A DNA stretch of 64,000 nt from a virus (lineage: Duplodnaviria > Caudoviricetes): positions 68,755 through 132,754 of IMG/VR virus record IMGVR_UViG_3300043432_000484. One strand, written 5' to 3'. Shown here in pieces: positions 3,853-29,470 of this stretch. The stretch's first letter is position 1; each line of letters opens with the position of its first letter. Position numbers and translations under genes: made by a program. A model generated the notes under the pieces. That model worked only from the letters and a program-made list of their open reading frames with translations, had not been told where the DNA came from and ran no database searches.

Positions 3853-4026
3853 TCAGTCGGGTACCACCCTTATAAGGGCCGGCACACATACTTTCGTGGA
3901 CTCGCCACCGTTCACCGACTCCAACTCCTTGTAGACCCCGCCGCGGGCTTCACAGGACGTGGATGGCTGGAGTGCCAGAGCGGTAAGCCCCGTGACGATC
4001 AAGGCGATTACAATCAAGAGCTTCAT
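3853..4026 (-). CDS. small secreted/membrane protein (57 aa)
   Basis: translated by hand: MKLLIVIALIVTGLTALALQ...; start overlaps the E1 stop. Confidence 0.5.
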   Translation of the reverse strand: MKLLIVIALIVTGLTALALQPSTSCEARGGVYKELESVNGGESTKVCVPALIRVVPD

Positions 4027-4598
4027 CATGTTCTCATCACTCCGCCCGGGTGGATTGCGTAGTCAAGCTTCTTGCCCCGGAGCAAGAAATCCTGTGCCGC
4101 CTTGGCGATCATGGACGACGCCACAGCGATGAACGGAAGGTGCTCTCCTCCCTCGCACGTGGCTTGCCCGGCCACGTTCTCTGAGTCGATCACGAAGTTT
4201 TCGTCCCAGACCACCCGCCCATATGATCCATCTGCAGCCAAGGCCCCATGCAAGCACGGAGTCTTGGTGTGCCGCGCAAACGCCTGGACGACCTCCCGGG
4301 CCGGCGCGTTGTCGAGGCAATCCAGAAGCAGGTCAGCCCCCGAAAGGAGCTGGGTAGCATTGTCCGTGGTCAGCCGGTGAGGCACCGCCGTAGGCTTGAG
4401 CCCGAACAAGAACCCCATCGACTGCTGCAGCGACTGGGCCTTGTTCTTGCCCACCCCGGGCTTGCTGTGGAACTGGGCGAGCACGTTCTTTTGCTCAATT
4501 CGATCCATGTCGATGAGCTTGAGGTCGGCCTCATTCCTAAGAAACAAAGCCACATGCGAGCCCAGAGCCCCTACGCCTATGATGGTGACCTTTTTCAT
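4026..4598 (-). CDS. ThiF/MoeB-family E1-like adenylyltransferase
   Basis: IIGVGALGS, IDMDRIEQKN..Q, GKNKA, DCLDN...R, candidate catalytic Cys in ATCE. Confidence 0.9.
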   Translation of the reverse strand: MKKVTIIGVGALGSHVALFLRNEADLKLIDMDRIEQKNVLAQFHSKPGVGKNKAQSLQQSMGFLFGLKPTAVPHRLTTDNATQLLSGADLLLDCLDNAPAREVVQAFARHTKTPCLHGALAADGSYGRVVWDENFVIDSENVAGQATCEGGEHLPFIAVASSMIAKAAQDFLLRGKKLDYAIHPGGVMRT

Positions 4599-4756
4599 GT
4601 TCCCGAACCCGTCTCCTCCTTCTTATCACAGTTTGGACAGAGAGGGGGAGGATTCCACTCATCATTGGAAGCCGTCTCGCATTCAACCACCGCGCCACAG
4701 CGCTTGCACTTGTAGCGCAGCAGTTGAACCCAGTGCTTCCAACCGGTGAAGTACAT
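4595..4756 (-). CDS. 53-aa zinc-ribbon protein (not in the ORF track)
   Basis: translated by hand: MYFTGWKHWVQLLRYKCKRCG...CPNCDKKEETGSGT; TGATG and ATGA overlaps on both sides. Confidence 0.7.
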   Translation of the reverse strand: MYFTGWKHWVQLLRYKCKRCGAVVECETASNDEWNPPPLCPNCDKKEETGSGT

Positions 4757-5010
4757 CAGCCGTCCAGCTGGCCGCCGAATGGCGTCTTGGGGCGCACCGC
4801 GACACGGTTCGGGAGGTCATCCTTTGCCGGGAAGCGATCGACCACGTAATCCGAGAAGTCAGCCGTCTGGGCATCGATACCCGGGACGTTGCCGTTGAGC
4901 ACTGCCTCCGCGGCCCAACGCTTGATCTCAGCATCGGTAGCGTCGAATGGGATCGGGTCGGTCAAGTCCCCGTTGGACCCCGCGAATGTGACGTTCAGGT
5001 TTGCTTCCAT
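4756..5010 (-). CDS. ubiquitin-like (beta-grasp) protein with C-terminal GG plus a short extension
   Basis: 84 aa ending RPKTPFGG-QLDG; lies between JAB and E1 genes. Confidence 0.75.
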   Translation of the reverse strand: MEANLNVTFAGSNGDLTDPIPFDATDAEIKRWAAEAVLNGNVPGIDAQTADFSDYVVDRFPAKDDLPNRVAVRPKTPFGGQLDG

Positions 5011-5465
5011 GTCTCTTCTCCTTGATTGTCAGAACCCTCAGGCTCTGCGATTGCCTCTACGCTGGACTGCCAACGTCGAACCATGTGATGGTTGTAGTAG
5101 GACTTGCCCCGCAGCTCTCCCATCCACGTGGGCTCATATAGCGCAGGACCCTTGGCGTAGTCAAGCTTCCCTGGCCCAACCCAGCACAGTTCGATGAACT
5201 GATCCTCGCTCGTGATCCACCAGACCAACCGGCGGCCCAATCCAGACTCGACGGCCGCGAAAGTGGTCAGGTCCGTGTCCGAAGGGCCGGGCTCTCCTGA
5301 CCCCGGATGACTATGAGCAAAGCCCAGAATGTTGGCGCGGTTCTCCCAGATGACTTCCCAAAGCTCTCGGGAGTCAGGGAGCGCACCACCACTGCGATCC
5401 ACCGGCAGATGCCAGTAGATCGGCTCGCAGCCCATTCCAACCAAAACTCCAGCTTCAATGCTCAT
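4995..5465 (-). CDS. JAB/MPN+ metallopeptidase
   Basis: N-terminal E plus HSHP-x7-S-x2-D (GFAHSHPGSGEPGPSDTD). Confidence 0.9.
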   Translation of the reverse strand: MSIEAGVLVGMGCEPIYWHLPVDRSGGALPDSRELWEVIWENRANILGFAHSHPGSGEPGPSDTDLTTFAAVESGLGRRLVWWITSEDQFIELCWVGPGKLDYAKGPALYEPTWMGELRGKSYYNHHMVRRWQSSVEAIAEPEGSDNQGEETWKQT

Positions 5466-5698
5466 GGCGTTTCTTCTTCCCTAACCGGATACCGATCACC
5501 GAAGATCTTGATACACAGTTGCCCAATCTCTTCGTAGGTCAAATCTCCTGCATTGGTTTTGAGGATAGCCCCCATCACATCTTCGCGTTCGTGAATAGCT
5601 AAGCGATACAGAGCCTCAGAAAGGGACTTACGCTCCTTCTCGGTGAGCTGCTTCGCACGCTCGGCCTCGAAAGCTTCATGCATACCTGGGTGGCTCAT
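5462..5698 (-). CDS. hypothetical protein
   Basis: 78 aa, 4-nt overlaps with neighbours. Confidence 0.55.
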   Translation of the reverse strand: MSHPGMHEAFEAERAKQLTEKERKSLSEALYRLAIHEREDVMGAILKTNAGDLTYEEIGQLCIKIFGDRYPVREEETP

Positions 5699-5994
5699 GG
5701 TTCCTCCAACTCGCTGATGACATCCGACAGATCCAACCCAAAGCGTTCTCCAGTTCTCCGCAGATCCTCAGCAAATCGTGCTTTGGAATGCAAATTGCCC
5801 CATTGATCGCTGTACCAACCGGGATGAGCGTTGTCCGCTGGAGCCGAACCCTCGGAACGATCGTAATCTGAGTCCTCGGACCACCCGCAGCTGGGGCACC
5901 CCCACGGGCCATAGATGATCCCCACCCCGACATCCACGGAGTCCTGTGTGCAATGATCATTGCACTTGGGGCAGTTCAATCTGCCCTCACGCAA
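5695..5994 (-). CDS. zinc-ribbon hypothetical protein
   Basis: CPKC...CPSC. Confidence 0.6.
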   Translation of the reverse strand: MREGRLNCPKCNDHCTQDSVDVGVGIIYGPWGCPSCGWSEDSDYDRSEGSAPADNAHPGWYSDQWGNLHSKARFAEDLRRTGERFGLDLSDVISELEEP

Positions 5995-6200
5995 TGGAAG
6001 AGAACGTCCCGGTCCTCTTCATGAGTGACGAAGCGTCCGTGGCAATGCTCCGCCATCAGTTCCCGGGCCTCTTCCATGGCCGGGACGTATGCCCCGGACA
6101 GGTGAACCAAACCCCCAAAAGAATCGGTTCGAACGGGGCTGGCTCCGGAGCTGCACGCCCCAAGGACTAGGGCCAAAATGAGTGCTGTGATGGTTTTCAT
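5976..6200 (-). CDS. small lipoprotein
   Basis: MKTITALILALVLGAC lipobox. Confidence 0.55.
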   Translation of the reverse strand: MKTITALILALVLGACSSGASPVRTDSFGGLVHLSGAYVPAMEEARELMAEHCHGRFVTHEEDRDVLFHCVRAD

Positions 6201-6210
6201 AGGTAGCTCC

Positions 6211-7173
6211 TCAATCCACGTGCCTGTACACAACCAACTTCCCATCGCGATCGGCTTCCATGATCACCGAGGGCAGGCTTTCCAGAGTGAACCACGTGTC
6301 CCCTTTGGTGCCATACGCGAAATCGTCATCATCCCCGTGTGCGGAGAGGCAGATCCCAGAATCGATGATCCTTAGCGTGTTCTTGTCACACGTGCACTCG
6401 AAACGGCGACGCAGGACCCGGAATCTCACCACCATCTCGTTCCCGCGATGAGCGGCCCGATGATCCAGGTACTCAGCACCCCCTAGCGCCAACGCGGCGC
6501 GAGCTGCCGCTTCAAAGTCCACAGCGGCAATGGCGCGACGCCCGGCGCCGTCACCTAGGCGACCCATCATTTCTCGGCGAAGCTCTTCCTTGCGGCGTGC
6601 TTCCTCCTCCAAGCGCAGCTGTTCGGTTAGCTCCGCTCGGCGACGATCCGCTTCGATCCTCTGCCAGCGCGCCATCCGGAATGCAGCGTCCAATGCTGGG
6701 ACCACACCCTTTACGTGACGAACAGAATCCAGCGCGTCCAAATAGGCCGTCAGTACCCCATCCTCGGCCCCCAGAGGCATCTCCTGCTGGATAAACACCA
6801 AGGACCCATCCTCACTGCAACGCCCGGCTGAAACCAGCACAAAGCGATCCAGCCCCGGATCAATCAGATTCACGCGCTCCGACTGAAACGCAATCTTGAT
6901 CGGGTCCGGGTTCACGTCCACATCGCTCGCAATGATGCGATCCCCTACCAGGTAGCCCACCATCTTGTGGCGCAGGTTGGCTGGCTCCGGATCGCTGGCT
7001 TCCAGATATCGTGCCTTGCGGCCGTCAAGAGTGAACTTGGCCCAACCGTGCTCCGCCGGAAGGGGTCCTTCGAGCGTCCACCCTCTGGGACCAGATCGAA
7101 GAGACCTACCTCCAAGCCACGGCAGCACGATCGTGCTGGGCTCACGGTTCTGAAGTAGGCCTCTCCAATCCAT
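6211..7173 (-). CDS. unknown 320-aa protein in the Ubl operon
   Basis: AGGAG RBS before MDWRG; central coiled coil; C-terminal CTC...DSGICL. Confidence 0.75.
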   Translation of the reverse strand: MDWRGLLQNREPSTIVLPWLGGRSLRSGPRGWTLEGPLPAEHGWAKFTLDGRKARYLEASDPEPANLRHKMVGYLVGDRIIASDVDVNPDPIKIAFQSERVNLIDPGLDRFVLVSAGRCSEDGSLVFIQQEMPLGAEDGVLTAYLDALDSVRHVKGVVPALDAAFRMARWQRIEADRRRAELTEQLRLEEEARRKEELRREMMGRLGDGAGRRAIAAVDFEAAARAALALGGAEYLDHRAAHRGNEMVVRFRVLRRRFECTCDKNTLRIIDSGICLSAHGDDDDFAYGTKGDTWFTLESLPSVIMEADRDGKLVVYRHVD

Positions 7174-7876
7174 TGTCGCTCCTGTCCAAACGCTCAAGCC
7201 TAGCATGCCATGATTCAAGAGTCTCGCGTGGCAAACGTCTACGAGCCATCTTCAGTCGAACTTCAGCACTAATCCCAGCCTTTTGCCGTTTGATTCTCTC
7301 TTCTCGCTCTTCCTCAGAATATTTAGACCATGCAGCTTTCAACGCCACTCTAGTCTTCTCCCTAATCTCTGGGTCTGAATGCTGAATCAAGGCCCTGGCC
7401 TTGCGACGTTCTCTCTCCACTGTAGAGTTGAAAGCAATCTTCGTAGCCCTCTTGTGTCGGGCCTTCACATCAGGTTTAGCCATAGCAGTTTTGACACTGG
7501 AACTGTTTCTGGCCTTCACCTCAGGCCGATTCTGAGCAACTACCCCAGAATTAGATATCTTGCGCTTAGTGTCTTCCGATGGCCGTCCAGCAGCGCCCCC
7601 ACTTTTCAAGTTGTAGCCCACAGGGAACAAAGAGGTTGCCACCCATCGTATCTCCAAAGAGTCCAGCTCCTCTTTGGAAGAAGCCCCTTCCACAACCTCG
7701 AACTGGAAGTTGTCTTTCCCGTACTTGGCTATGGCATTACGCAATGCGTGACAATGACTATCCGAACGAAAATGGTGAACCCACCTCTCCGATGGGTTCA
7801 CCGTCTGCCCGTGATATAATTTGTCATTCACAAGGCATCGTATTCTGTACACAATTCCGTAAGTCACACCGCCCAA
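7142..7876 (-). CDS. GIY-YIG homing endonuclease with NUMOD3-like repeats
   Basis: GIVY...YHGQT, AIAKYG.DNF, GYNL..GG; lower GC than its neighbours. Confidence 0.85.
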   Translation of the reverse strand: MGGVTYGIVYRIRCLVNDKLYHGQTVNPSERWVHHFRSDSHCHALRNAIAKYGKDNFQFEVVEGASSKEELDSLEIRWVATSLFPVGYNLKSGGAAGRPSEDTKRKISNSGVVAQNRPEVKARNSSSVKTAMAKPDVKARHKRATKIAFNSTVERERRKARALIQHSDPEIREKTRVALKAAWSKYSEEEREERIKRQKAGISAEVRLKMARRRLPRETLESWHARLERLDRSDNGLERPTSEP

Positions 7877-9777
7877 GCTGGTTTGGAGAGGAGCTTGGTG
7901 CCCATGATGGTGTCGATCAACGTGACCCGCGGGGTAGCCATGAACTTAGCTGTGGTGGTGCCCACCGGTGTCGATGCGATCAACGCACTGATGGTGCGGG
8001 GGATCGCATAAGGGTCTTGGAAGATGCGCTCATCGATCATGAAGCAGGGGATTCCCAGCTCCGCTGCCGTAGTTGTGACCGCAGTGTGCGCGTGCCCCAT
8101 GTTGCCAGGCACGTAGAGGAACCCGAATGCGATCGGGTTGAGACCCGACTCACGGACGGCTGCCGTGAACGGTGCGTCTTGCTCGTCACCCACGATGATG
8201 AAGATCGCATCCTCACCTTCCTTGGGCTTGTACTTCTTCAGAGCCTTTACACCCTGAGCGTGGCTCGTCCCACCACCGGCATTGATGCCCTTGAAGGCTT
8301 GTTCGATGCCAGCTGCCGACTGATGCTTGATCACGACCTCACGCCCTGTCTGGCTGAACACCGAGACGTGGAGCTGATCCGCCGGGAACCCCTGCAGGAA
8401 CTTCGCCAAGTACTCCTTGGCCTTCACGATCGCCCCGTCCATCGAGCCCGAGATGTCGACCATGAAGTAGATGCGAAGGTTCTTGACAACCTCTGCGACA
8501 GCCGTCTTGATGGCGTTGTCCGCGGCATCCTTGAGCTGTTCCTGAGTGGCCTTGGAGCGCACGCGAGTCGCGATGTTCGCAGCACGCATGTCCTCAGCTG
8601 TCGCGATAGCCCGGTCCCACCGGTGCTTGATCTCTTGCACCTCCAAGAGCCCAAGGTCCTCCAACGTCGGAGTCGCGATGATCAGGTCCTTGTCCGACAA
8701 CGAACCAGCATCGATGGCCACGGCCACGATCGCCCGCGTCAGACCCACGCCCTTGGGCAGCAAGCCCACGATGCGCTTGAAGTTCGGCTTGTCCCTTTGG
8801 ATGAGCTGGCAGATCTGCTCCTCCGAGAGACCTTCCCACGATTCGGCGGCTTTCACGGCCTCACCGATCGCCATCTGCCGATGCCCGTCATCCGCTTGGA
8901 TTTGCGGCCAACGAAGTGTCTCGAAGAACTTTTGCGTGTTGGGCTTGTAGCCCACGCGACGCGCCAGCTCGATCACGGTGCGGCGGAAGCCGGCCTTGAC
9001 GAGACCCTCCAACATCCGGGGGTTCTCCTCCCGGTAACGCAGCCACTTGTCCACGGCCTTGGTCCAACGACCCAAGAACGGGTTGCGCGCCGACTTGCCG
9101 AACCCGAGCTGGCGATTGATCTCAGCCACTCCCGGCAAGCGCAGCACGTCGTGCACCCGAAGCAGGAGCTTTGGGTTGAAGTCGGTAGCCTTGGAACCAG
9201 CGGCCTTCGCCCCCGGCTTCTCCAGGTCCTTGCGACCAAGCAACAGCATGGCCTCACCGACGTCGCGGTAGTCCTCATCGTGAAACACGAGCTTCCCACC
9301 GTCGATGACCGGATCACCCTTGCGCGACTGAACAAGCAAGAATGCAGCGAGGATCACCTTCAAGTCTCGGTGCTCCAAGCCAAACGCGTAGCTGGCCCAC
9401 TTGGCGGCGAACTCGTTGTCGAGCTTCCACACTTCCGCGACCTGCTTGTACATCCACACCGCGACTTCCGGGTAGATGCCAGCGGGCTGGTAGCGACCGA
9501 TCACGCGATTGCCTTCCTTGACGCGACCGTCGTCCTTCAGCTTGCCGAGCTTGATCTTGGTGGATTGCTTGCCGGTCTTGCGCAGCTCGTAGACAACCTT
9601 GTCTCCCTCTTCGAGCACGTGAGTGACAGGGAGCCACTTCACTCCGATCGTGGAGCCGGCGTCGGGGACCACGATGCCGGCTCTCCCATGATGAGCATGG
9701 TCCGAATACGCCAGAACTGTCTGAAGTATTCTCTCCGCCGGCCCAAGATTTTCATTCACATTTGCCATAGTCGCCAT
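7864..9777 (-). CDS. divergent TROVE(Ro60)-like plus vWA domain protein
   Basis: C-terminal vWA MIDAS (DISGSM, GGT, GDE); N-terminal EFAAKWASYA..HRD, GRWTKAVDKWL, ELARRVGYKP and ESWE resemble TROVE motifs. Confidence 0.7.
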   Translation of the reverse strand: MATMANVNENLGPAERILQTVLAYSDHAHHGRAGIVVPDAGSTIGVKWLPVTHVLEEGDKVVYELRKTGKQSTKIKLGKLKDDGRVKEGNRVIGRYQPAGIYPEVAVWMYKQVAEVWKLDNEFAAKWASYAFGLEHRDLKVILAAFLLVQSRKGDPVIDGGKLVFHDEDYRDVGEAMLLLGRKDLEKPGAKAAGSKATDFNPKLLLRVHDVLRLPGVAEINRQLGFGKSARNPFLGRWTKAVDKWLRYREENPRMLEGLVKAGFRRTVIELARRVGYKPNTQKFFETLRWPQIQADDGHRQMAIGEAVKAAESWEGLSEEQICQLIQRDKPNFKRIVGLLPKGVGLTRAIVAVAIDAGSLSDKDLIIATPTLEDLGLLEVQEIKHRWDRAIATAEDMRAANIATRVRSKATQEQLKDAADNAIKTAVAEVVKNLRIYFMVDISGSMDGAIVKAKEYLAKFLQGFPADQLHVSVFSQTGREVVIKHQSAAGIEQAFKGINAGGGTSHAQGVKALKKYKPKEGEDAIFIIVGDEQDAPFTAAVRESGLNPIAFGFLYVPGNMGHAHTAVTTTAAELGIPCFMIDERIFQDPYAIPRTISALIASTPVGTTTAKFMATPRVTLIDTIMGTKLLSKPAWAV

Positions 9778-10261
9778 CCATTTGCTGCTGTGTTACTGAA
9801 CGACACATCTCCAAGAAATCCTGTAGTTTCCAGTCATTAAGGGATGCGTTCACAATCCATGCCACTAACCGTACATTGTCCCGCACGTAACCCATTGCAG
9901 GGTCGATCCGATCAATGGAGGGCCTCCAGGGTTGTTCCTCACCGCGCTCACTCACCCCATCGTCCACCAACATGGGCACCCCTGAAAGAGCGCACAAACC
10001 ATTCTGTGTTGACCATAGATTGAGCACGAAGTCAAGGTCAATCTCAAAAGCCAGCCCAAACTTCTTGGACCTTATCCTAGCTGACCTTACTCGATGGGCC
10101 AACTGCCCCTCAACCGTACGGTATTTGCCTCTTTGGTAGACTTTGGAACATTCTTTGCACCAAGAGTACACACCGCTGCGAGTGCGGTTAGTTGTCGTAA
10201 AATGGGAGATTTCAAGTTCCGTTTTACAGTTACTGCAGCACTTATGGGTGATGACCGTCAC
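9752..10261 (-). CDS. HNH-like homing endonuclease
   Basis: Zn-finger N-terminus; QNGLCALSG, SIDRIDP..GY..DNVRLV...N. Confidence 0.85.
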   Translation of the reverse strand: MTVITHKCCSNCKTELEISHFTTTNRTRSGVYSWCKECSKVYQRGKYRTVEGQLAHRVRSARIRSKKFGLAFEIDLDFVLNLWSTQNGLCALSGVPMLVDDGVSERGEEQPWRPSIDRIDPAMGYVRDNVRLVAWIVNASLNDWKLQDFLEMCRSVTQQQMDGDYGKCE

Positions 10262-10271
10262 CTACTCCTAC

Positions 10272-10277
10272 TACACC
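10272..10277 (-). promoter_or_regulatory. GGTGTA putative phage extended -10 element heading the TROVE/Ubl operon
   Basis: 10 nt upstream of the GTG start; 9-12 nt spacing recurs at 10 other genes. Confidence 0.55.
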
Positions 10278-10388
10278 GGAACCGATGCTACTTCAAGTAG
10301 CGATAGCATTTTGATTGAGTTACGTGTGGGCGTGTGTGGAGGATGTTGCGCATTGGCACGCGACAGAGCCCTGTATTACCGTAGGGTT

Positions 10389-10778
10389 ATGAGATACCCA
10401 TGCCGTGGATGTGGTTGCGCCACATCATCTGAAAAACCTTACGTACACGAGATCGTGATCGATGGCATCCCCACACGGAGCACCCCAAAGCTGAAAATGC
10501 AGTGCGATGGGTGTGGCGAGTTGACCCTGACCATGAACGAGTTGCAAGAGTACGAGCGAGCCGCAGCCGCCGCAGTGCTCTGCACCATGGTTCCTGGTTC
10601 GGGCGCCATGGTCCGTTATGCACGCCGCGCTTTGGGACTATCCAAAGAAGGGCTGGCGGACGCAATCTACTGCAACTCGATCGACGTGATCACACGATGG
10701 GAGGACGGGCAGGAAGCCATCGACCTCTGCAGCCAAATGGCGATCGTGGCCTTGCTGATGCCAAGCGAAGTTGGCTAG
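10389..10778 (+). CDS. MqsA-like antitoxin (Zn-finger plus XRE HTH), orphan
   Basis: CRGCG...CDGCGE, then VRYARRALGLSKEGLA...ITRWEDG. Confidence 0.75.
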   Translation: MRYPCRGCGCATSSEKPYVHEIVIDGIPTRSTPKLKMQCDGCGELTLTMNELQEYERAAAAAVLCTMVPGSGAMVRYARRALGLSKEGLADAIYCNSIDVITRWEDGQEAIDLCSQMAIVALLMPSEVG

Positions 10779-11008: not shown

Positions 11009-11018
11009 AGGATCACCA

Positions 11019-11186: not shown

Positions 11187-11190
11187 GGCC

Positions 11191-19421: not shown

Positions 19422-19433
19422 ATTATTCACTAG

Positions 19434-22434: not shown

Positions 22435-22974
22435 GTTCGTATCTACCGAATTATGAGCGGCAACCGCTAAGCAAAACTCGACCAAGCTCTCGTCTGAATA
22501 GGTGTTCCGAGCAAGATTGGCCATGACGCTAACGAATCTGACATTACCCTCCACATAGCCTAAAGAGCAATCGATCCTGTCAAGGCTAGCATTCCTGGGA
22601 GATGGGGTTTCCCAACCTGAAGTGCATGAAGGTAGAATCAACTTCCACCCCGTAATAGGGCACACACCTTCCTGCGAATTCCATACACTAGACAGATACA
22701 CCAGGGTCAAACTGGTAGCACCCCGATGGCGTCTATCCTTAGCCTTAGCCCTCAAAAGGAACCAACGAAACGGAGCGTGCTCGTCTCTGCTTCGAGGACG
22801 CAAGTTAGTTAGGTTGCCAGGTCCTGGATGAGTCTTATTGCGTTCGGTCATTGCACAAGAATGACCGCAAAAGAATCGGGTTCTGCCTTGTTTGACCCAA
22901 CGATTATGCTCCCTTGTCAATTTCAAAAAGGGGGATGAGCAGTTGGCACACAGTAGTTCGATCTTGTTAGGCAT
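22426..22974 (-). CDS. HNH-like endonuclease
   Basis: QEGVCPITG...ASLDRID..GY.EGNVRFV...N. Confidence 0.85.
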   Translation of the reverse strand: MPNKIELLCANCSSPFLKLTREHNRWVKQGRTRFFCGHSCAMTERNKTHPGPGNLTNLRPRSRDEHAPFRWFLLRAKAKDRRHRGATSLTLVYLSSVWNSQEGVCPITGWKLILPSCTSGWETPSPRNASLDRIDCSLGYVEGNVRFVSVMANLARNTYSDESLVEFCLAVAAHNSVDTNGE

Positions 22975-23330
22975 GGTGGAAACGGGTGGAGTCGAACCAC
23001 CGTCCAGAAACGATCCGAGACGAGTACTACGAACGTATCCTCTTGTTGCTACGTGGCTCGGTTCACCAAGAGGCGGCTACCCGGCCACGTTCCGACTGTT
23101 TCTAGTGAGTGTCGGTCGGAAACACCTGACTCACCGAACCCTTGTACTTTCTCAGCCCTCCGAGCCGCGTCCCCCAAGGGTAGGGAAGCTCGAAGTTTAG
23201 CGCCTCAGGCCGCTACGGCAAAACCGTTGTCGTTGGCTTTTGTATCGTCCAGACAGGATTTACGTGGTCACCTGGACCCACGGTTCGCACTCCATCACTT
23301 CAGCGTCCCTGTCGAAACCGGGGCGTTCCC
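22974..23330 (-). ncRNA. ssrA: tmRNA, tag peptide ANDNGFAVAA*
   Basis: 5' GGGAACG...TTCGAC; 3' T-arm plus CGTTTCC-A-CCA with G3:U70; tag ORF 23237-23205. Confidence 0.92.
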
Positions 23331-23342
23331 AAACTTCACTAG

Positions 23343-23415
23343 AGCCCTAGATCGGGATCGAACCGACCAAAACCTGAGTACAAAACAGGGGCCTCACCAT
23401 TGAGGCGACTAGGGC
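23343..23415 (-). tRNA. tRNA-Thr(TGT)
   Basis: cloverleaf. Confidence 0.88.
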
Positions 23416-23420
23416 AAAAC

Positions 23421-25649: not shown

Positions 25650-25792
25650 TGGCGCCGTTTCCTGGAGTCGAACCAGAATGTCTTGTGAGGAACTGCTGGG
25701 TGCGCCCTTACGGGTGCGAGATGCTGATCCTGGGATAGAGCTTTCGCTCCAGCTTGAAAGGCTGGTGGGGAACCGGTCCCCTGTAAAACGGC
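25650..25792 (-). ncRNA. tRNA-like RNA carrying the conserved motif in the variable-arm position (element A1)
   Basis: acceptor GCCGTTT/AAACGGC+G+CCA, T-arm, TTC anticodon-like arm, insert ATCTC-G[hairpin]C-ACC...CACAAG. Confidence 0.7.
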
Positions 25793-25800
25793 AAAGTCTT

Positions 25801-25872
25801 GCCCGCGTTCGAGATGAGAGACCTGTGTTTGCATTACCTTAGCGTGTAAGGTCTCTCTTGGTGAACGTGAGC
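25801..25872 (-). ncRNA. stand-alone motif RNA (element B)
   Basis: GCTCACGTTC-ACC-AA-GAGAGACCT-TACACG...AGGTCTCTC-ATCTC-GAACGCGGGC. Confidence 0.7.
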
Positions 25873-25987
25873 GGTGGGCCTTTCCGGAGTCGAACCGAAA
25901 AGATCTTGTGTGCACCACTGGGTGGGTCAATCTCTGACCCGAGGTGATTGGTGCAGTACTAGTTGGCAGCCACCTGCCAAAAGGCCC
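25873..25987 (-). ncRNA. tRNA-like motif RNA (element A2)
   Basis: acceptor GGGCCTT/AAGGCCC, T-arm, insert TGCACCA..CCTC-G[hairpin]C-ACC..TGGTGCA-CACAAG. Confidence 0.7.
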
Positions 25988-26055
25988 ATTGAGACATCAG
26001 TGTAGAAACCTACTTCTTCTCCGAGGAGAAAGGTAGTGATGCCGGACTACCTTAG

Positions 26056-26186
26056 TGGGGAACCTTGGACTCGAACCAAGTTTGCTTGTAAGCGTCGCTA
26101 GGTGCTCCCTTGCGGGTGCGAGGTACGATGCTGGTATCGTGCTTTCGATTTACCGTCGAAGTGGAGGCCAACCCCCCGTATTCCCC
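26056..26186 (-). ncRNA. tRNA-like motif RNA (element A3)
   Basis: acceptor GGGGAAT/GTTCCCC, T-arm, insert AGCATCG..CCTC-G[hairpin]C-ACC..CGACGCT-TACAAG. Confidence 0.7.
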
Positions 26187-26219
26187 ATAGTGCTCGTCTT
26201 TCCGAGCCGTCAAAATTTT

Positions 26220-26360
26220 GCCCACTTCCGAGTTGAGAGACCTGGTTGCTTTTTGCCTGTTCCTAAAACGGGTGCCTTGCCAGTCGGCCACATCGGGTTT
26301 CCCCAACGGATGGATTCGAACCACCATGATGCGTGTAAGGACTCTAGGGTGAAAGCGAGC
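26220..26360 (-). ncRNA. circularly permuted tRNA-like RNA with YrlA-like topology (element C)
   Basis: motif 5' strand, T-arm, acceptor CGTTGGG-GAAA-CCCGATG closed by a tetraloop, D-arm, motif 3' strand. Confidence 0.7.
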
Positions 26361-26361
26361 A

Positions 26362-26418
26362 GCGGACTCCAGGGAGTTGAACCCTGACCAACGGTGGCGG
26401 CCTAACCCGCCGAGTCCA
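26362..26418 (-). ncRNA. miniature tRNA-like RNA with a truncated anticodon arm
   Basis: GGACTC/GAGTCC, GGCGG-GTTAGG-CCGCC, ACC-GTT-GGT, CAGGG-TTCAACT-CCCTG. Confidence 0.55.
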
Positions 26419-26481
26419 AGTAACCGTGACGTAGGAGTACGACCGACACAACTAAACCGGAGACACAGACAAGACACCCTG

Positions 26482-26510
26482 TATGTACACCGAGATGTGG
26501 GAGCCGTCAA
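26482..26510 (-). promoter_or_regulatory. promoter upstream of the ncRNA cluster
   Basis: TTGACG-N17-TACATA with GGTG directly before the TA. Confidence 0.6.
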
Positions 26511-26549
26511 CAGCTACTGGCCAAAAATCGACATCTGGTGTCGAATCGG

Positions 26550-26621
26550 TGCGGGTAGGGAGAATCGAACTCCCGAGATCTTCGTTGGCAACGAAGCGCT
26601 CTACCACTGAGCGATACCCGC
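26550..26621 (-). tRNA. tRNA-Gly(GCC)
   Basis: cloverleaf; A73. Confidence 0.88.
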
Positions 26622-26646
26622 ATTGAACTTTTTTAGTAGGGATGTA

Positions 26647-26991
26647 TCAGGTCTCCAGGGAGACCAAGGTGGCTCCCATATCGCCTAGGGCCGCCGACAC
26701 GTACACGTTCCCCTCATGGTCCTTACGCTTCATCAGGGTCACTTTGGCCATTGGATGGGGTTTGCTCCCGTTCCCGGGCAGCAAGGACACAGTCTCCCCG
26801 TACCGGCCCTTCCCGCGGCGGCCCACAATGTACTCGGTGGGGGTGCCATTCTCTGCGTCTCCATGACCCATGACAGCCCTGATCGCCGCTTTGACCCTCT
26901 GCTTGGGGCGGAGGGAGTCAAAAACCTGGATCAGCTTCTCTTGTTCCATTTTCGCCGTAAGTAGGCGTGAGATTCGGAAATCGTAGGTCAT
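26647..26991 (-). CDS. hypothetical protein
   Basis: 114 aa. Confidence 0.6.
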   Translation of the reverse strand: MTYDFRISRLLTAKMEQEKLIQVFDSLRPKQRVKAAIRAVMGHGDAENGTPTEYIVGRRGKGRYGETVSLLPGNGSKPHPMAKVTLMKRKDHEGNVYVSAALGDMGATLVSLET

Positions 26992-27021
26992 GGCCTAGCT
27001 CCGGCACAAAAGGAACCACAG

Positions 27022-27095
27022 TCAGCGTAGGGGGATTTGAACCCCCAACCTCACCCACCCCAAGGGTGCGCGCTACCAGATTGCGCTACACGCTG
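27022..27095 (-). tRNA. tRNA-Pro(GGG)
   Basis: cloverleaf. Confidence 0.9.
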
Positions 27096-27187
27096 ATGAA
27101 AAGCGCTAGGATACCCGTCACACCCCCTAGCGGGTGCCTGTTACAAGGACGGCTATGCTGTCTGCCAGCTGGTTTGCACAACGGCAT

Positions 27188-27263
27188 TGGTGGCCGGAAG
27201 AGGAGTCGAACCTCTGACGCCCTGCTCTTCAGGCAAGCGCTCTACCACCTGAGCTATCCGGCC
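27188..27263 (-). tRNA. tRNA-Phe(GAA)
   Basis: cloverleaf, CCA. Confidence 0.92.
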
Positions 27264-27310
27264 ATTGATGCTCGATGACCCGCGGCACAAGGCCTGAGAC
27301 CACCGAGCGG

Positions 27311-27384
27311 CACCTCCACGGGGCGACGATCCCCGTTTCCTGCGCTGAGAACGCAGTGTCCTAACCTACGTAGACGATGGAGGC
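27311..27384 (-). tRNA. tRNA-Glu(CTC)
   Basis: loop TT-CTC-AG; atypical T-loop. Confidence 0.8.
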
Positions 27385-27388
27385 ATAG

Positions 27389-27460
27389 TGCTCTGTACGG
27401 GTATCGATCCCGTTCATTGACCTTGAAAGGGTCACGTCCTAGCCAGTAGACGAACAGAGC
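27389..27460 (-). tRNA. tRNA-Glu(TTC)
   Basis: loop CT-TTC-AA; T-loop ATCGATA. Confidence 0.85.
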
Positions 27461-27637
27461 ATTGAAGGCACTAAGACGGCGGCAGTCGAACCCAGCAGCT
27501 ACTGGATTCTCTTCGTAAGCTTTTCGCGACGCGCTACCGTCACTACTTTGCCGAGTGCTGACCTCCTTTCGAGGGGAGCGTCACTCTACAGCGTCAGGGG
27601 CTGCCACGGGAGGACAAAGCCTATGTCTCAGAGCCAG

Positions 27638-27710
27638 AGCCCTAGATCGGGATCGAACCGACCAATCCCGCATTACGAAAGCGGTTCCTCACCATTGAGG
27701 AGACTAGGGC
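27638..27710 (-). tRNA. tRNA-Thr(CGT)
   Basis: cloverleaf; near-paralogue of Thr(TGT). Confidence 0.88.
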
Positions 27711-27714
27711 ACAG

Positions 27715-27785
27715 CACGGCAGTAGGGAATCGAACCCTCTCGACGCGAGATTTGGAGTTTCGCCGGCTACCTTAGCCTCCGCCGT
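27715..27785 (-). tRNA. tRNA-Trp(CCA)
   Basis: loop CT-CCA-AA, G73. Confidence 0.8.
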
Positions 27786-27856
27786 ATATTGACCAGCCGT
27801 CTCTCCGACCTGTCACGTTCCCCGCTTGGGTCCGGCCGAACGTTCACCGGTTGATT

Positions 27857-28108
27857 TCAGATGTCCGAGGCTTCCCTCTGGTGTTTGTAGTCCCTCTCGT
27901 GCTCCAAGAGGTATTGGCCCGAGATTGCCGGATCCGATACTCCCGTCACCGTCCACAGACGGTCCGGAGTGGCCGTCTGCTTCCCGAAGTAGACTACCCG
28001 GCCTAGCCCGGCAAGCGTGGCCGGAATCCATGCCGTCTGCACCGATTCCCCTTGTTCAGTGGGAGAGCGAAGCACGCATTGCTTGTACATGACGTCTTTC
28101 TTAGACAT
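27857..28108 (-). CDS. hypothetical protein
   Basis: 83 aa with GGAGG RBS. Confidence 0.65.
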   Translation of the reverse strand: MSKKDVMYKQCVLRSPTEQGESVQTAWIPATLAGLGRVVYFGKQTATPDRLWTVTGVSDPAISGQYLLEHERDYKHQREASDI

Positions 28109-28225
28109 GAGTTCCTCCTTAGATGTGTCCGCCTGTGCCTACCGGAGCGTCCTGTGGACGACTTACCGAAACGGTTGACCGCAACATCCATGAAGGACGC
28201 CTTACGCGGTTGGCACTACAGCGGT

Positions 28226-28300
28226 TGGTCGAGATGGCGAGAATCGAACTCGCTGCCTTCTGTTCCCGAAACAGACGTCCCACCATTGGACTACATCTCG
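28226..28300 (-). tRNA. tRNA-Pro(CGG)
   Basis: cloverleaf, CCA. Confidence 0.9.
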
Positions 28301-28311
28301 TTGAACTCTAG

Positions 28312-28842
28312 TTACTCTGAAGACGATGTGCTTTTCTTCTTCGCCCAATACCCTCTCGGGGGCGTGTCGATTCCCAACACCTCACACCGCTTCTTGATGG
28401 CTGTTGACGTGACTCCTATGTCCCGCGCCACATGCGTAGCAGGCTTCGACCAGATTAGGACCCTCAGTTCCTCCTCTCCTGGCCATTCGATCTTGGTCCG
28501 ACGCTTGCGGCGTACGTACCGCCTTCTCTTGGCTGTCTTCCATCTAACCGGACAAACGATGTCTCGCTGAACCCTTTCGGCCTTGCTGCCCGCATATCCG
28601 AGAGTCTGCGTGTGACAGTTGGGACAGCGAAGCTCCAAGTTACAGGCCCGATCGTCCCGCCAGTTGCGATTCACATGGTCCACTTGAAGAATCAGCACCT
28701 TGCCATTCCATTCGTCACCTAGACCGCAATCCGCACATCGGTAGGGCACCCCGGATTCGATGAGGGCTCTACGCAACATGTAGGAAGGGGTTCTTTTTCC
28801 CGAATCCCTTAGGACCAGTACCTCTGCTGCTGTCTTTTTCAC
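28312..28842 (-). CDS. HNH endonuclease with C-terminal HTH
   Basis: CADCG...VDHVN...NLELRCPNCH; PPRGYW. Confidence 0.88.
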   Translation of the reverse strand: MKKTAAEVLVLRDSGKRTPSYMLRRALIESGVPYRCADCGLGDEWNGKVLILQVDHVNRNWRDDRACNLELRCPNCHTQTLGYAGSKAERVQRDIVCPVRWKTAKRRRYVRRKRRTKIEWPGEEELRVLIWSKPATHVARDIGVTSTAIKKRCEVLGIDTPPRGYWAKKKSTSSSE

Positions 28843-28918
28843 GGTCTAGCTGGAGGGACTTGAACCCCCGATCTCACCGCCCCAAACGGTGCGCGATACC
28901 AAACTTCGCTACAGCTAG
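28843..28918 (-). tRNA. tRNA-Pro(TGG)
   Basis: cloverleaf. Confidence 0.9.
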
Positions 28919-28922
28919 ATAG

Positions 28923-29003
28923 CTACCCCAGTTGGACTTGAACCAACGACCTCCTGACTTCGCGAAAAGCCAGGTGCTCTGATCTCTACTGAGCTACAGG
29001 GTA
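28923..29003 (-). ncRNA. tRNA-like RNA with an extended anticodon arm and no defined anticodon
   Basis: normal acceptor, D and T arms; CCTGGCTT-TTCGCG-AAGTCAGG. Confidence 0.6.
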
Positions 29004-29009
29004 ATGATT

Positions 29010-29131
29010 GAGAACGTTCGAGGAACCAGGCAGGATGTTTGCAGTTGGACTTGAACCAACACACAACTGTTTGCTTACAGTTTGCTCTACCAATGAGCTT
29101 TGCTTGTATGCCAGGTATGGTGAACGCTCTC
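29010..29131 (-). ncRNA. motif RNA in which the motif extends or replaces the acceptor stem (element D1)
   Basis: GAGAGCGTTC-ACC-AT-ACCTGGCA-TACAAG-[D, anticodon-like, T arms]-TGCCTGGT-TCCTC-GAACGTTCTC. Confidence 0.7.
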
Positions 29132-29133
29132 AG

Positions 29134-29206
29134 TCGGCCGTAGTGGAGTCGAGCCACTTTCTCCCGCGTATCAGACGGACAAACTAAAACCCTAGTTATA
29201 ACGGCC
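29134..29206 (-). tRNA. tRNA-Ile(GAT), degenerate
   Basis: loop CT-GAT-AC; atypical D-arm and T-loop. Confidence 0.6.
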
Positions 29207-29342
29207 GTTGCTTTCCCGATGGTGACTCACGTACACCGCGGACGTCGGGAGCGCCCCTTGTTTGCAACCAAGTCTTGCTAGGCCCGCCTCTTGCGACACG
29301 GACCCGTTACTCCTTCCACGCATGGTGGATGAGCTGAAAAGT

Positions 29343-29470
29343 GAGAGAGCGTTCGAGGAATCAGGCAGGATAACCGCTTGCGCGGGCGATTGGACTTGAA
29401 CCAACTACTTTCTGTTTAATAGACAGATGCTCTACCGAATGAGCTACGCTTGTATGCCAATGAGACTGGT
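29343..29470 (-). ncRNA. motif RNA (element D2), 5' end overlapped by an HNH gene
   Basis: GGCA-TACAAG-[D, ATT anticodon arm, T]-TGCC-TGA-TTCCTC-GAACGCTCTC; paralogue of D1. Confidence 0.65.

What the first reader, a model, noticed from the sequence alone, without database searches (positions are those of the whole stretch)
4026..29470. Candidate integrated system: Ro60-like protein, Y-like tRNA-mimic RNAs and Ubl machinery
Seen: the 637-aa protein has TROVE-like segments and a vWA MIDAS, and the same window encodes a YrlA-topology RNA plus six relatives sharing one handle. Established: bacterial Ro60 (Rsr) binds Y RNAs by a conserved stem, and the tRNA-like module tethers or gates effectors. 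Inference: the conserved handle is the binding site of this divergent Ro60. The RNPs would present tRNA decoys to host tRNA-binding proteins such as anticodon nucleases, and the co-operonic Ubl system might tag what is captured. The two loci are about 16 kb apart, so the link is hypothetical.
Basis: inference. Interest (0 to 1): 0.85.

Follow-up and report, generated by a model that had tools for sequence, protein, structure and literature searches.

The report
Divergent Ro60, Y-like RNAs, ubiquitin-like cassette
A huge phage carries a very divergent look-alike of the RNA-binding ring protein Ro60, a family of tRNA-shaped small RNAs that share one conserved stem "handle", and a small ubiquitin-like tagging kit; the same set occurs in dozens of huge phages and in Myxococcus chromosomes, which points to a Ro60/Y-RNA particle wired to ubiquitin-like chemistry that I found described in none of the papers I searched.

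Summary
The 637-aa protein (7864-9777, minus strand) has an invariant vWA MIDAS site. Its helical domain matches no TROVE sequence model, yet its predicted fold is closest to Ro60 structures (the top 3 of 48,161 chains). Seven minus-strand RNAs (25650-29482) share one module: helix 1, a CUC/ACC internal loop, helix 2, then YACAAG. The module sits on tRNA-like bodies in four topologies, one of them YrlA-like.

- An RNA-only pattern hits 19 contigs among 2.9 million viral contigs, and all 19 encode the protein.
- An RNA model hits all 32 protein-encoding phage records tested. Hits lie within 2.5 kb of the operon, on its strand, in 26 of 28 mapped genomes.
- In Myxococcus and Pyxidicoccus genomes with no canonical TROVE gene, the genome-wide best Rfam YrlA match lies about 0.3 kb upstream of the homologue. 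No tRNA array is nearby.

The gene set Ro-like, p335, JAB, Ubl, E1 is conserved. A complex model places the Ubl on p335.

The decoy-and-tagging mechanism remains untested.

This scan has already noted the same cassette on other DNA. I rate it a new variant of the Ro60/Y-RNA kind.

The parts
7864..9777 (-). Ro60-like protein, 637 aa: N-terminal beta domain (about residues 30-100), helical-repeat TROVE-like domain (about 100-430), C-terminal vWA with MIDAS
   Evidence: Pfam vWA only. AF2 model pLDDT 77. Foldseek top 12 all Ro60, E 5e-8 to 4e-6, TM only 0.2-0.3. The family has at least 1456 clusters at 90% identity.
8482..9486 (-). helical (TROVE-like) domain, residues 98-432
   Evidence: Folded alone, pLDDT 79. 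VIA-align over 48,161 chains: 2nvo_A Z 8.9 (250 aligned, rmsd 14.3), 1yvp_A Z 8.7 (265 aligned, rmsd 14.7), 9l5y_B Z 8.4 (254 aligned, rmsd 13.4); the next match has Z 6.7.
7978..8487 (-). vWA domain with MIDAS (D441-x-S443-x-S445, T504, D531)
6211..7173 (-). p335 (true start at M16 of the ORF): conserved N domain, charged coiled coil, C domain with conserved C275, C277, C290 and H333; predicted Ubl-binding partner
   Evidence: Follows the Ro-like gene in 56 of 61 phage loci, often within 35 nt or less. Alignment. No Pfam, PADLOC, PDB or Atlas lead. Complex model.
4995..5465 (-). JAB/JAMM peptidase, 156 aa
   Evidence: Pfam Prok-JAB 24.7 bits against a cut-off of 25. H-S-H...S-D-T-D motif in the translation. 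Conserved in 55 of 61 loci.
4756..5010 (-). ubiquitin-like protein precursor, 84 aa; the family ends ..RPKTPFG plus 0-12 variable residues
4026..4598 (-). E1-like adenylating enzyme (ThiF domain only), 190 aa
   Evidence: Pfam ThiF 3.9e-21. Matches the E1 part of PADLOC E1-E2 models. Present in 51 of 61 loci.
25650..25792 (-). RNA-A: tRNA-like body (anticodon loop CUUUCAA, encoded CCA) with the module in a roughly 70-nt variable arm
   Evidence: model R1 73.5 bits; homologues in G001 and G003
25801..25872 (-). RNA-B: minimal module (helix 1, ACC loop, helix 2, UACACG, short cap, helix 2', AUCUC, helix 1')
25873..25987 (-). RNA-C: tRNA-like with the module, no clear anticodon arm
   Evidence: R1 52 bits
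26055..26186 (-). RNA-D: tRNA-like with the module in the variable arm
   Evidence: R1 75.9 bits; 84% identical homologue in G002
26221..26359 (-). RNA-E: circularly permuted tRNA-like domain (T arm, GAAA-closed 7-bp acceptor, D arm, anticodon-like arm) enclosed by helix 2 and helix 1; YrlA-like topology
   Evidence: Relatives with compensatory changes in L027, L040, L026 and G005.
29010..29131 (-). RNA-F: tRNA-like domain with a shortened acceptor, enclosed by helix 2 and helix 1
   Evidence: In relatives a full 7-bp acceptor starts at the G of YACAAG.
29345..29482 (-). RNA-G: paralogue of F (ARAGORN calls it tRNA-Asn att). It has helix 2 and the 3' CCUCG plus helix 1' strand, but no 5' helix-1 strand of its own.

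Best explanation
The window holds a phage copy of a conserved six-part module. The parts are:
1. a very divergent Ro60-like protein (helical TROVE-like domain plus vWA/MIDAS);
2. p335, a partner protein of no known family;
3. a JAB peptidase;
4. a small Ubl that ends in a conserved glycine;
5. a minimal E1-like adenylating enzyme;
6. several small RNAs that graft one conserved stem handle (helix 1, CUC/ACC internal loop, helix 2, 3'-flanking YACAAG) onto tRNA-like bodies.

Most likely the RNAs are this protein's Y RNAs. In that reading, the handle takes the place of the Ro-binding stem of YrlA, and the tRNA-like body is the exposed effector-binding part.

The Ubl would be trimmed by JAB, adenylated by the E1 and handed to or held by the C-terminal domain of p335. 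That would couple the particle to Ubl conjugation or Ubl-thiocarboxylate chemistry.

Shown here: the parts, their conservation, their co-occurrence and their adjacency.
Inferred: that the protein binds the handle, and what the Ubl arm does.
For: Fold:
- All top-12 Foldseek hits for the full model are Ro60, with about 540 aligned columns.
- The helical domain alone has three Ro60s as its top 3 of 48,161 chains: Z 8.9, 8.7, 8.4, with 250-265 residues aligned; the next match has Z 6.7.
- A diverse profile weakly hits human Ro60 (E 0.0013) and phage phiLo Ro60 (E 0.17-0.21), reaching into the TROVE part.

RNA family is real:
- 6 descriptor hits in the window against 0.35 in shuffles.
- Of 23 matches chosen by the 3'-side sequence alone, 17 have CUCG plus both helices upstream, against 0.22 in shuffled controls.
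- Covariation: 81% of cells paired against 61% in shuffles; 16 of 19 pairs change on both sides; 0 of 500 shuffles reach the observed score.

Co-distribution:
- The RNA pattern hits 19 of 2.9 million viral contigs. All 19 encode the protein.
- Model R1 hits 32 of 32 protein-encoding records, and 20 of 20 of those at least 90% complete.
- 22 of 28 genomes have an R1 hit of 30 bits or more within 2 kb downstream of ThiF; 26 of 28 have one flanking the operon. All 82 hits lie on the operon strand.

Independent lineage:
- Myxococcaceae chromosomes hold homologues at 37-41% identity together with p335, JAB, Ubl and E1, and with no tRNA array.
- R1 hits lie 0.2-1.2 kb upstream of those homologues.
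- Rfam YrlA gives full-length matches of 42.6-44.9 bits (E 3e-8 to 2e-7 per genome). They are the genome-wide best hits in 4 of 5 genomes and lie at most about 0.3 kb upstream on the same strand.
- These genomes have no canonical TROVE gene.
- The Myxococcus YrlA-like RNA is closed by the same helix 1, CACUC-G loop and helix 2, followed by AACACG.

Ubl arm:
- The five-gene order is conserved in 51-56 of 61 phage loci and 57-60 of 80 genome loci.
- The complex model supports binding of the Ubl to p335 residues 222-329, including Ubl tail residues 71-79, but does not show it. Score 0.64, best of 3 controls 0.00. That mark was reached by 58 of 80 solved complexes and 2 of 110 mismatched pairs. 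The runs agree in at least 88% of contacts, and partner pLDDT is at least 86.
Against: - No sequence-level TROVE membership. Pfam TROVE gives nothing. hhalign against a canonical Ro60 alignment gives only 18-22% probability.
- The structural matches have rmsd 13-15 A and TM 0.2-0.3, and Z below 13 can arise between unrelated helical repeats. I did not verify a closed ring.
- The window's RNAs do not match Rfam YrlA even at E<=10. The canonical GNCGAAN0-1G motif is absent from the handle.
- The phage co-occurrence is within one clade, so those genomes are not independent observations.
- In phages the operon sits inside the tRNA array, which by itself could explain the adjacency there.
- No E2 was recognised.
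- No tool here tests protein-RNA binding.
Confidence: 0.6

Rival explanations
1. The handle is not a Ro-like binding site. It is a processing or stabilising element of phage tRNA-array transcripts (leader-trailer stems, expanded variable arms), or the docking site of another protein such as p335. The Ro-like protein then acts on other RNAs, for example misfolded or cleaved tRNAs.
For: - In phages the RNAs lie in same-strand tRNA arrays.
- In F-type RNAs the acceptor stem starts exactly at the G of YACAAG, as at an RNase P site.
- Helix 1 with its G-C closing pair and 3' ACC looks like an acceptor end.
- Several A-type RNAs have complete cloverleaves and an encoded CCA.
Against: - The same handle closes RNAs with no tRNA body at all (RNA-B; the 86-89-nt RNAs of L028, L030 and L031).
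- It persists next to the operon in Myxococcaceae, where no tRNA array is present.
- Anticodon loops differ between homologous RNAs: UUC, ACG, CCA.
Confidence: 0.2
2. The Ubl, E1 and JAB trio is a sulfur-carrier relay like TtuB/TtuC or SAMP/UbaA, not a protein-tagging system. The Ubl thiocarboxylate, held by the cysteine-bearing C domain of p335, would thiolate the tRNA-like RNAs or the phage tRNAs.
For: - The E1 is a bare ThiF adenylation domain and no E2 is recognised.
- The Ubl ends in a single conserved Gly with a removable tail.
- p335 has three conserved cysteines, near which the Ubl tail is placed in the complex model.
- The set always travels with tRNA-like RNAs.
- E2-less Ubl systems that serve tRNA thiolation are established (Urm1/Uba4; TtuB/TtuC), from my own knowledge.
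Against: - I saw no PP-loop ATPase motif (SGGxDS) in the p335 translation, and Pfam found no such domain nor a rhodanese in the five proteins.
- This reading does not explain the Ro-like/vWA protein.
Confidence: 0.2
3. The 637-aa protein is not a Ro60 relative. It is an unrelated helical-repeat plus vWA scaffold of the Ubl pathway, for example a substrate receptor, and the resemblance to Ro60 is convergent or an artefact of aligning helical repeats.
For: - No TROVE sequence signal.
- hhalign probability of 18-22%.
- Z 8.4-8.9 with rmsd 13-15 A.
- An extra N-terminal beta domain that Ro60 lacks.
Against: - Ro60s are the top hits of two different aligners, ahead of all other helical repeats.
- The domain order is collinear.
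- The genome-wide best YrlA matches lie directly upstream in Myxococcus genomes that lack any canonical TROVE gene.
Confidence: 0.2

Closest known systems
Ro60/Rsr with YrlA-type Y RNAs in bacteria and phages (Chen et al. 2014, PMC4201824; Bxz1 gp220; Thermus phage phiLo phiRo60 with Yrl1/Yrl2, PMC12135203)
   Same: - Helical domain plus C-terminal vWA/MIDAS.
- Small RNAs encoded close by on the same strand.
- RNAs built as a terminal stem plus a tRNA-like domain.
- RNA-E and its relatives have the order T arm, closed acceptor, D arm.
- Myxococcus members score on the Rfam YrlA model.
   Different: - No Pfam TROVE or PF25045 signal, and an extra N-terminal beta domain.
- The handle has CUC/ACC loops and YACAAG instead of GNCGAAN0-1G.
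- The same handle is also placed in the variable arm of otherwise normal cloverleaves.
- 1-12 R1-detected copies per genome (the model detects mainly the variable-arm type).
- Fixed association with p335, JAB, Ubl and E1, which I did not find described for canonical Ro60.
E2-less prokaryotic Ubl systems (archaeal SAMP/UbaA/HvJAMM1; Thermus TtuB/TtuC; ThiS/MoaD-JAB-E1 clusters of Iyer et al. 2006, PMC1779556)
   Same: Small Ubl with a C-terminal glycine and a cleavable tail, a JAB peptidase, a ThiF-type E1, and no recognisable E2.
   Different: Always joined to a Ro60-like/vWA protein, to p335 and to tRNA-like RNAs. No sulfur-metabolism genes were recognised among the five operon genes.
Bil and Bub bacterial ubiquitination-like operons and type II CBASS Cap2/Cap3 (PMC10557695, PMC11601596)
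   Same: Ubl, E1 and JAB genes in one operon. The E1 matches the E1 part of the PADLOC E1-E2 models.
   Different: No E2 domain and no DUF6527. PADLOC finds nothing for the Ubl, p335 or the Ro-like protein. The set is carried by phages as well as by cells.

Membership tests
Ro60 / TROVE (Pfam PF05731) | Sequence match to the TROVE domain model | tested here: not met
   No TROVE hit at E<=10 for the protein or for the whole 132-kb record in six frames. None in distant relatives or in Myxococcaceae homologues. hhalign against a canonical Ro60 alignment gives 18-22% probability.
Ro60 / TROVE (Pfam PF05731) | HEAT-repeat toroid fold | tested here: inconclusive
   Ro60 structures are the best matches: Foldseek top 12, and VIA-align top 3 of 48,161 chains with Z 8.4-8.9 over 250-265 residues. 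But rmsd is 13-15 A, TM 0.2-0.3 and pTM about 0.5. Ring closure was not verified.
Ro60 / TROVE (Pfam PF05731) | C-terminal vWA domain with a MIDAS site, following the helical domain | tested here: met
   Pfam vWA at residues 431-560. Z 13-14.6 to vWA structures. D441, S443 and S445 invariant; T504 and D531 invariant among close relatives, nearly invariant in the distant set.
Ro60 / TROVE (Pfam PF05731) | Y RNA gene within about 4 kb on the same strand (criterion of PMC4201824) | tested here: met
   Met for the family. The genome-wide best Rfam YrlA hit lies at most about 0.3 kb upstream in 4 of 5 Myxococcaceae genomes. Module RNAs flank the operon in 26 of 28 phage genomes. In this window itself the RNAs are 16-19 kb away.
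Ro60 / TROVE (Pfam PF05731) | Binds Y RNA and misfolded RNA | not testable with these tools
   No protein-RNA prediction or assay is available.
YrlA (Rfam RF02553) | Match to the covariance model at the gathering score (69 bits) | tested here: not met
   No YrlA hit for the window's RNAs at E<=1 over 13.5-32 kb or at E<=10 over RNA-E alone. Myxococcus and Pyxidicoccus relatives score 42.6-44.9 bits, significant but below the gathering score.
YrlA (Rfam RF02553) | tRNA-like domain in the order T arm, closed acceptor-like stem-loop, D arm, enclosed by a stem formed by the 5' and 3' ends | tested here: met
   RNA-E. Relatives in four other phages carry compensatory changes.
YrlA (Rfam RF02553) | GNCGAAN0-1G motif near the 5' end (proposed Rsr site) | tested here: not met
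   The position 3' of the stem's 5' strand holds YACA(A/C)G instead. CUCGAACG occurs only in B, F and G, on the opposite strand.
Ubl conjugation or sulfur-carrier triad (Ubl + E1 + JAB) | ThiF-type adenylation domain | tested here: met
   Pfam ThiF 3.9e-21, 75.7 bits; GxGxxG visible in the translation.
Ubl conjugation or sulfur-carrier triad (Ubl + E1 + JAB) | JAMM metalloprotease motif | tested here: met
   HSHPGSGEPGPSDTD in the translation. Pfam Prok-JAB 24.7 bits, just under the 25-bit cut-off.
Ubl conjugation or sulfur-carrier triad (Ubl + E1 + JAB) | Small protein ending in a conserved glycine, with or without a cleavable tail; beta-grasp fold | tested here: inconclusive
   The C terminus ..RPKTPFG plus 0-12 residues is conserved in 21 sequences. 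No Pfam match. The fold was not predicted on its own; partner pLDDT was at least 86 in the complex model.
Bil / Bub / CBASS-type ubiquitination-like operons | E2 (UBC-like) protein or domain | tested here: not met
   No UBC or Prok-E2 Pfam hit and no PADLOC hit for p335 or any operon protein other than the E1 and JAB. The fold of p335 was not tested.

The most novel reading that the evidence does not exclude
A Ro60-like/Y-RNA particle is hard-wired to an E2-less ubiquitin-like pathway, in Myxococcus-type bacteria and in the huge phages that probably infect Myxococcota. The tRNA-shaped RNAs, held by their common handle, would act as baits or sensors for tRNA-binding proteins or for tRNA damage. 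p335 would then deliver the activated Ubl to whatever is captured, or to the RNA itself. That would be an RNA-guided protein-tagging or RNA-modifying system, which phages could use against tRNA-targeting defences.
Probability: 0.2. Interest if true: 0.9.

Novelty: new variant of a known kind. Interest (0 to 1): 0.8.

Why it matters
- The role of the vWA/MIDAS domain of Ro60 and the purpose of tRNA mimicry by bacterial Y RNAs are both open questions. Here a Ro60-like family is locked to a Ubl, its protease, its E1 and a Ubl-binding partner across more than 100 loci. That suggests a concrete downstream chemistry for a Ro/Y-RNA particle.
- The family is large: at least 1456 clusters at 90% identity. 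Pfam does not recognise it as TROVE, so current annotation calls it hypothetical.
- The RNAs show one protein-sized handle moved between four RNA topologies. That is a natural experiment in modular RNA design.
- Homologous loci exist in cultured Myxococcus, Corallococcus and Pyxidicoccus strains, so the idea can be tested genetically in a tractable host.

Tried and rejected
Protein, sequence level:
- Megablast of 4026-12000 against phage records: no match.
- phmmer and a close-family profile against PDB sequences: only vWA proteins.
- Foldseek with the helical domain alone: nothing at E<=0.001; best Ro60 is 9l5y_A at E 0.23, probability 0.87.
- pdb_via re-ranking of the full model was filled by vWA domains.
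- Pfam on ten distant relatives: no TROVE.

p335:
- PHROGs, PADLOC and the ESM Atlas (whole protein and C domain) gave no lead.
- PDB profile search gave nothing.

Complex job:
- It was also set up to see whether the Ubl docks on the vWA/MIDAS domain. The modelled interface was on p335 only, and the score fell to 0.00 when p335 was replaced. So I make no claim of a vWA-Ubl contact, and none against one.

RNAs:
- Rfam YrlA on the window's RNAs: no hit.
- CGAA motif: CUCGAACG in B, F and G looked like the Y-RNA CGAA motif. It is on the wrong strand and is not conserved in other phages.
- 11-nt GAAA tetraloop receptor: considered and rejected, because no UAUGG strand is present.
- K-turn, BHB splice motif and small self-cleaving ribozymes: considered from memory only and rejected, because the loops do not fit their consensus.

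Other:
- Pfam on ten ORFs inside the tRNA array found no RNA-repair enzyme.
- The search for related loci with the diverse alignment A9 failed for lack of conserved stretches.

Full report
**Setting.** The window is bases 68755-132754 of a 132.7-kb IMG/VR phage fragment that CheckV rates 28% complete. All relevant genes are on the minus strand. ARAGORN and Rfam find about 40 tRNAs and a tmRNA between 3.7 and 31.5 kb.

**The protein.**
- The 637-aa ORF (7864-9777) has only vWA hits in Pfam, at residues 431-560.
- Pfam TROVE finds nothing in the protein or in the whole record, even at E<=10, although the same search detects Deinococcus Rsr.
- The family is large and well conserved: at least 1456 clusters at 90% identity, 60-83% identical among the best 120, on contigs up to 659 kb. 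It has 568 representatives at 50% identity with E<=0.001.
- An AF2 model (pLDDT 77) shows an N-terminal beta domain, a helical domain (about residues 100-430) and the vWA domain.
- Foldseek's 12 best PDB hits are all Ro60 proteins: 9kop and 9l5y from phage phiLo, Deinococcus 2nvo, Xenopus 1yvp/1yvr/2i91, and human 9nen. E is 5e-8 to 4e-6 over about 540 columns, but TM is only 0.2-0.3.
- The helical domain folded alone (pLDDT 79) was aligned to 48,161 representative chains. Three Ro60s rank first: 2nvo_A Z 8.9, 1yvp_A Z 8.7, 9l5y_B Z 8.4, with 250-265 residues aligned and rmsd 13-15 A. The next match has Z 6.7.
- A profile that includes distant members weakly hits human Ro60 (E 0.0013) and phiLo Ro60 (E 0.17-0.21). 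The phiLo alignments run from the TROVE part into the vWA start.
- hhalign against a canonical Ro60 alignment, built from Bxz1 gp220 and relatives, is collinear over 299 columns but reaches only 18-22% probability.
- I read this as a probable, very divergent Ro60 relative. It is not a demonstrated member.

**The operon.**
- tblastn of the window's proteins against 61 related phage loci shows a fixed order: Ro-like, p335, JAB, an 84-aa protein, ThiF. Each is present in 51-56 loci.
- The GIY-YIG gene (7142-7876) and the HNH gene (9752-10261) that flank the Ro-like gene here are sporadic insertions.
- The 84-aa protein is a Ubl precursor. The family ends ..RPKTPFG followed by 0-12 variable residues.
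- p335 starts at M16 of its ORF. It has a conserved N domain, a charged coiled coil and a C domain with conserved C275, C277, C290 and H333. No library explains it.
- A three-chain complex job (vWA domain, p335, and the Ubl as partner) supports binding but does not show it. Score 0.64, best of 3 controls 0.00. That mark was reached by 58 of 80 solved complexes and 2 of 110 mismatched pairs. The runs agree in at least 88% of contacts, and partner pLDDT is at least 86.
- In that model the interface is p335 residues 222-329 against the Ubl, including its tail residues 71-79. Replacing p335 abolished the score. My own alignments and a three-chain design differ from the tool's calibration, so the counts hold only roughly.

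**The RNAs.**
- Seven YACA(A/C)G sites on the minus strand anchor one module. One strand reads: helix 1, C-ACC-N(1-5), helix 2, YACA(A/C)G. The other reads: helix 2', N, YCUC, G, helix 1'.
- A descriptor for the module finds six copies in the window. All are on the minus strand between 25.6 and 29.2 kb. Shuffles give 0.35 per window.
- The window holds four topologies:
  - A, C and D carry the module, with helix 1 capped by a tetraloop, as a giant variable arm of a tRNA-like body.
  - E is a circularly permuted tRNA-like domain (T arm, acceptor closed by GAAA, D arm, anticodon-like arm) enclosed by helices 2 and 1.
  - F and G enclose a non-permuted tRNA-like domain.
  - B is the bare module.
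- Relatives in other phages repeat all four types with different helix sequences.
- In full F-type relatives the acceptor stem begins at the G of YACAAG.
- Anticodon loops differ between homologous A-type RNAs.
- Covariation on 13 variable-arm RNAs: 81% of cells paired against 61% in shuffles and 33-52% when the partner columns are slid. Sixteen of 19 pairs change on both sides, and 0 of 500 shuffles reach the observed score.
- Those 13 RNAs were chosen with a pairing filter, so I added an unbiased test. Among 23 matches to a pattern that specifies only CACC, YACAAG and the T loop, 17 have CUCG and both helices upstream. After shuffling the upstream 120 nt the count is 0.22.

**Co-distribution in phages.**
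- That pattern matches 19 contigs among 2.9 million IMG/VR contigs. Fifteen were already on the protein list, and the other four also encode the protein.
- Covariance model R1 scores D, A and C at 52-76 bits and plain T arms at 15.5 bits or less.
- R1 finds matches in 32 of 32 protein-encoding records, and in 20 of 20 of those at least 90% complete. Thirty of the 32 have a best E of 1e-7 or lower. Copy number is 1-12 per record.
- I mapped hits of 30 bits or more onto 28 genomes of 190-620 kb. Twenty-two have one within 2 kb downstream of ThiF, often 100-700 nt away. Twenty-six have one flanking the operon. All 82 hits are on the operon's strand.
- This window, like G001 and G003, is an exception: its RNAs lie 16-19 kb upstream of the Ro-like gene.
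- One confound applies to phages. The operon is embedded in the tRNA array, and all these phages form one clade.

**An independent lineage.** A note from this scan (e1-5376868) said that the cassette also sits in myxobacterial chromosomes. I tested that.
- The genome collection holds 122 relatives.
  - One tier, at 51-61% identity, is mostly in Myxococcota MAGs. These are probably phage contigs or prophages, and they hint at the host.
  - A second tier, at 37-41% identity, is in cultured Myxococcus, Corallococcus, Pyxidicoccus and Citreicoccus, including complete chromosomes. It also occurs in Verrucomicrobiota MAGs and a Leptonemataceae chromosome.
- p335, JAB, Ubl and ThiF accompany the gene in 57-60 of the 80 loci kept.
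- The Myxococcaceae isolate loci I inspected (L146-L169) have no tRNA genes within 10 kb.
- R1 still finds same-strand matches 0.2-1.2 kb upstream of the gene there, at 22-33 bits.
- Rfam's YrlA model gives full-length matches of 42.6-44.9 bits about 0.3 kb upstream of the gene in Myxococcus sp. CA023, M. xanthus AM003 and Pyxidicoccus sp. 3LFB2. It gives a partial 30-bit match in M. vastator.
- In whole-genome searches these are the best YrlA matches in 4 of 5 genomes of 9-11.5 Mb. None of the five genomes has a canonical TROVE gene, and their homologues also lack a Pfam TROVE hit.
- The Myxococcus YrlA-like RNA is closed by the same architecture: GCGCCC / GGGCGC as helix 1, CACUC-G, an 8-bp helix 2, then AACACG.
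- In the Rfam alignment, helix 2 corresponds to the terminal stem of YrlA. The YACAAG position falls where canonical YrlA carries the proposed Rsr motif GNCGAAN0-1G (PMC4201824). That correspondence is my inference.

**Reading.**
- Proximity of the best YrlA match to the gene on the same strand is the criterion by which YrlA RNAs were first assigned to Ro60 (PMC4201824). It is met by this divergent family in genomes that have no other Ro60.
- Together with the fold evidence, this makes a Ro60-like/Y-RNA pairing the best explanation. I put it at about 0.6.
- What the particle does is open.
- A sulfur-carrier role for the Ubl (as with TtuB or Urm1) is a serious alternative, given the bare E1, the absence of an E2 and the cysteines of p335.

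**Prior knowledge.**
- Phage Ro60 homologues with nearby Y-like RNAs are known: Bxz1, CcrColossus, phage G and phiLo (PMC4201824, PMC12135203).
- A review of jumbo phages mentions TROVE proteins in a subset (PMC7824862).
- My searches found no paper that links TROVE/Ro60 with JAB, ThiF and Ubl genes or that describes the handle RNAs.
- The one annotated GenBank relative, Virus Rctr197k, labels the gene 'similar to conserved hypothetical protein'.
- This scan has reported the same cassette from other genomes.

Noticed in passing
window 11579-13392 (-): IS607-like pair between the Ro-like operon and the tRNA array: a TnpB (OrfB_IS605 plus Cas12f-like TNB domain, 395 aa) and a serine-recombinase TnpA with a MerR-type HTH (209 aa). 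It may explain why the RNA cluster is displaced in this phage.
   Followed up: partly
window 7142-7876 (-) and 9752-10261 (-): A GIY-YIG and an HNH/EndoVII-type homing endonuclease gene flank the Ro-like gene. Each is found at that place in only a few of the 61 related loci, so they are mobile insertions into the operon.
   Followed up: yes
window 26363-26417 (-): A 55-nt anticodon-less mini-tRNA (acceptor plus T arm) ends just before RNA-E. It resembles the mascRNA model (26 bits, E 0.0023 in a small search). ARAGORN calls it a tRNA with a 2-nt anticodon.
   Followed up: partly
window 29112-29385 (-): A roughly 270-nt GC-rich structured stretch between RNA-G and RNA-F (MFE -98.7 kcal/mol). 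It has a T-arm-like hairpin and ends ...GAGAGCGUUCACCA. The GAGAGCGUU strand can pair either with the AACGCUCUC of G upstream or with the AACGUUCUC of F downstream, so G and F may share one helix-1 strand.
   Followed up: no
window 3766-3847 (-): tRNA-Arg(CCU) directly downstream of ThiF has a 15-nt variable arm with a GAAA-capped mini-hairpin. A tRNA-Arg follows ThiF in several related phages too.
   Followed up: no
window 27638-27710 (-): A tRNA missed by ARAGORN but found by Rfam (36.8 bits). It is 86% identical to tRNA-Thr(UGU) at 23341-23416, and I read it as Thr(CGU) with a U-U mismatch closing the anticodon stem.
   Followed up: no
window 22974-23330 (-): Phage-encoded tmRNA (Rfam 134.8 bits) with tag peptide ANDNGFAVAA, inside the tRNA array.
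   Followed up: no
window 18830-19423 (-): A trypsin-like serine protease ORF (197 aa, Pfam 1e-11) sits inside the tRNA array and overlaps the call for tRNA-Gly(UCC).
   Followed up: no
alignment A4, columns 21 and 32 (helix 1, third pair): The third position of helix 1 is a non-standard pair (mostly A-A or A-C) in 9 of 13 RNAs. This conserved mismatch may be part of the recognition surface.
   Followed up: no
G007 (IMGVR_UViG_3300032782_000001) 97.9-100.4 kb: This complete 436-kb phage has one module RNA 3.6 kb downstream of the Ro-like gene and a second cluster of about seven copies 232 kb away. So RNA clusters can also sit far from the operon.
   Followed up: no
L107-L136 (genome contigs): Relatives at 51-61% protein identity are binned mostly in Myxococcota MAGs (Kofleriaceae, Polyangia, Sandaracinaceae, Haliangiales). 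That suggests Myxococcota as hosts of this huge-phage clade.
   Followed up: no
G039 (Pyxidicoccus sp. 3LFB2) C1656:2472-2586 and C710:8948-9060: Two further YrlA-model matches (40.9 and 31.2 bits) lie elsewhere in this genome. They may mark extra copies of the system.
   Followed up: no
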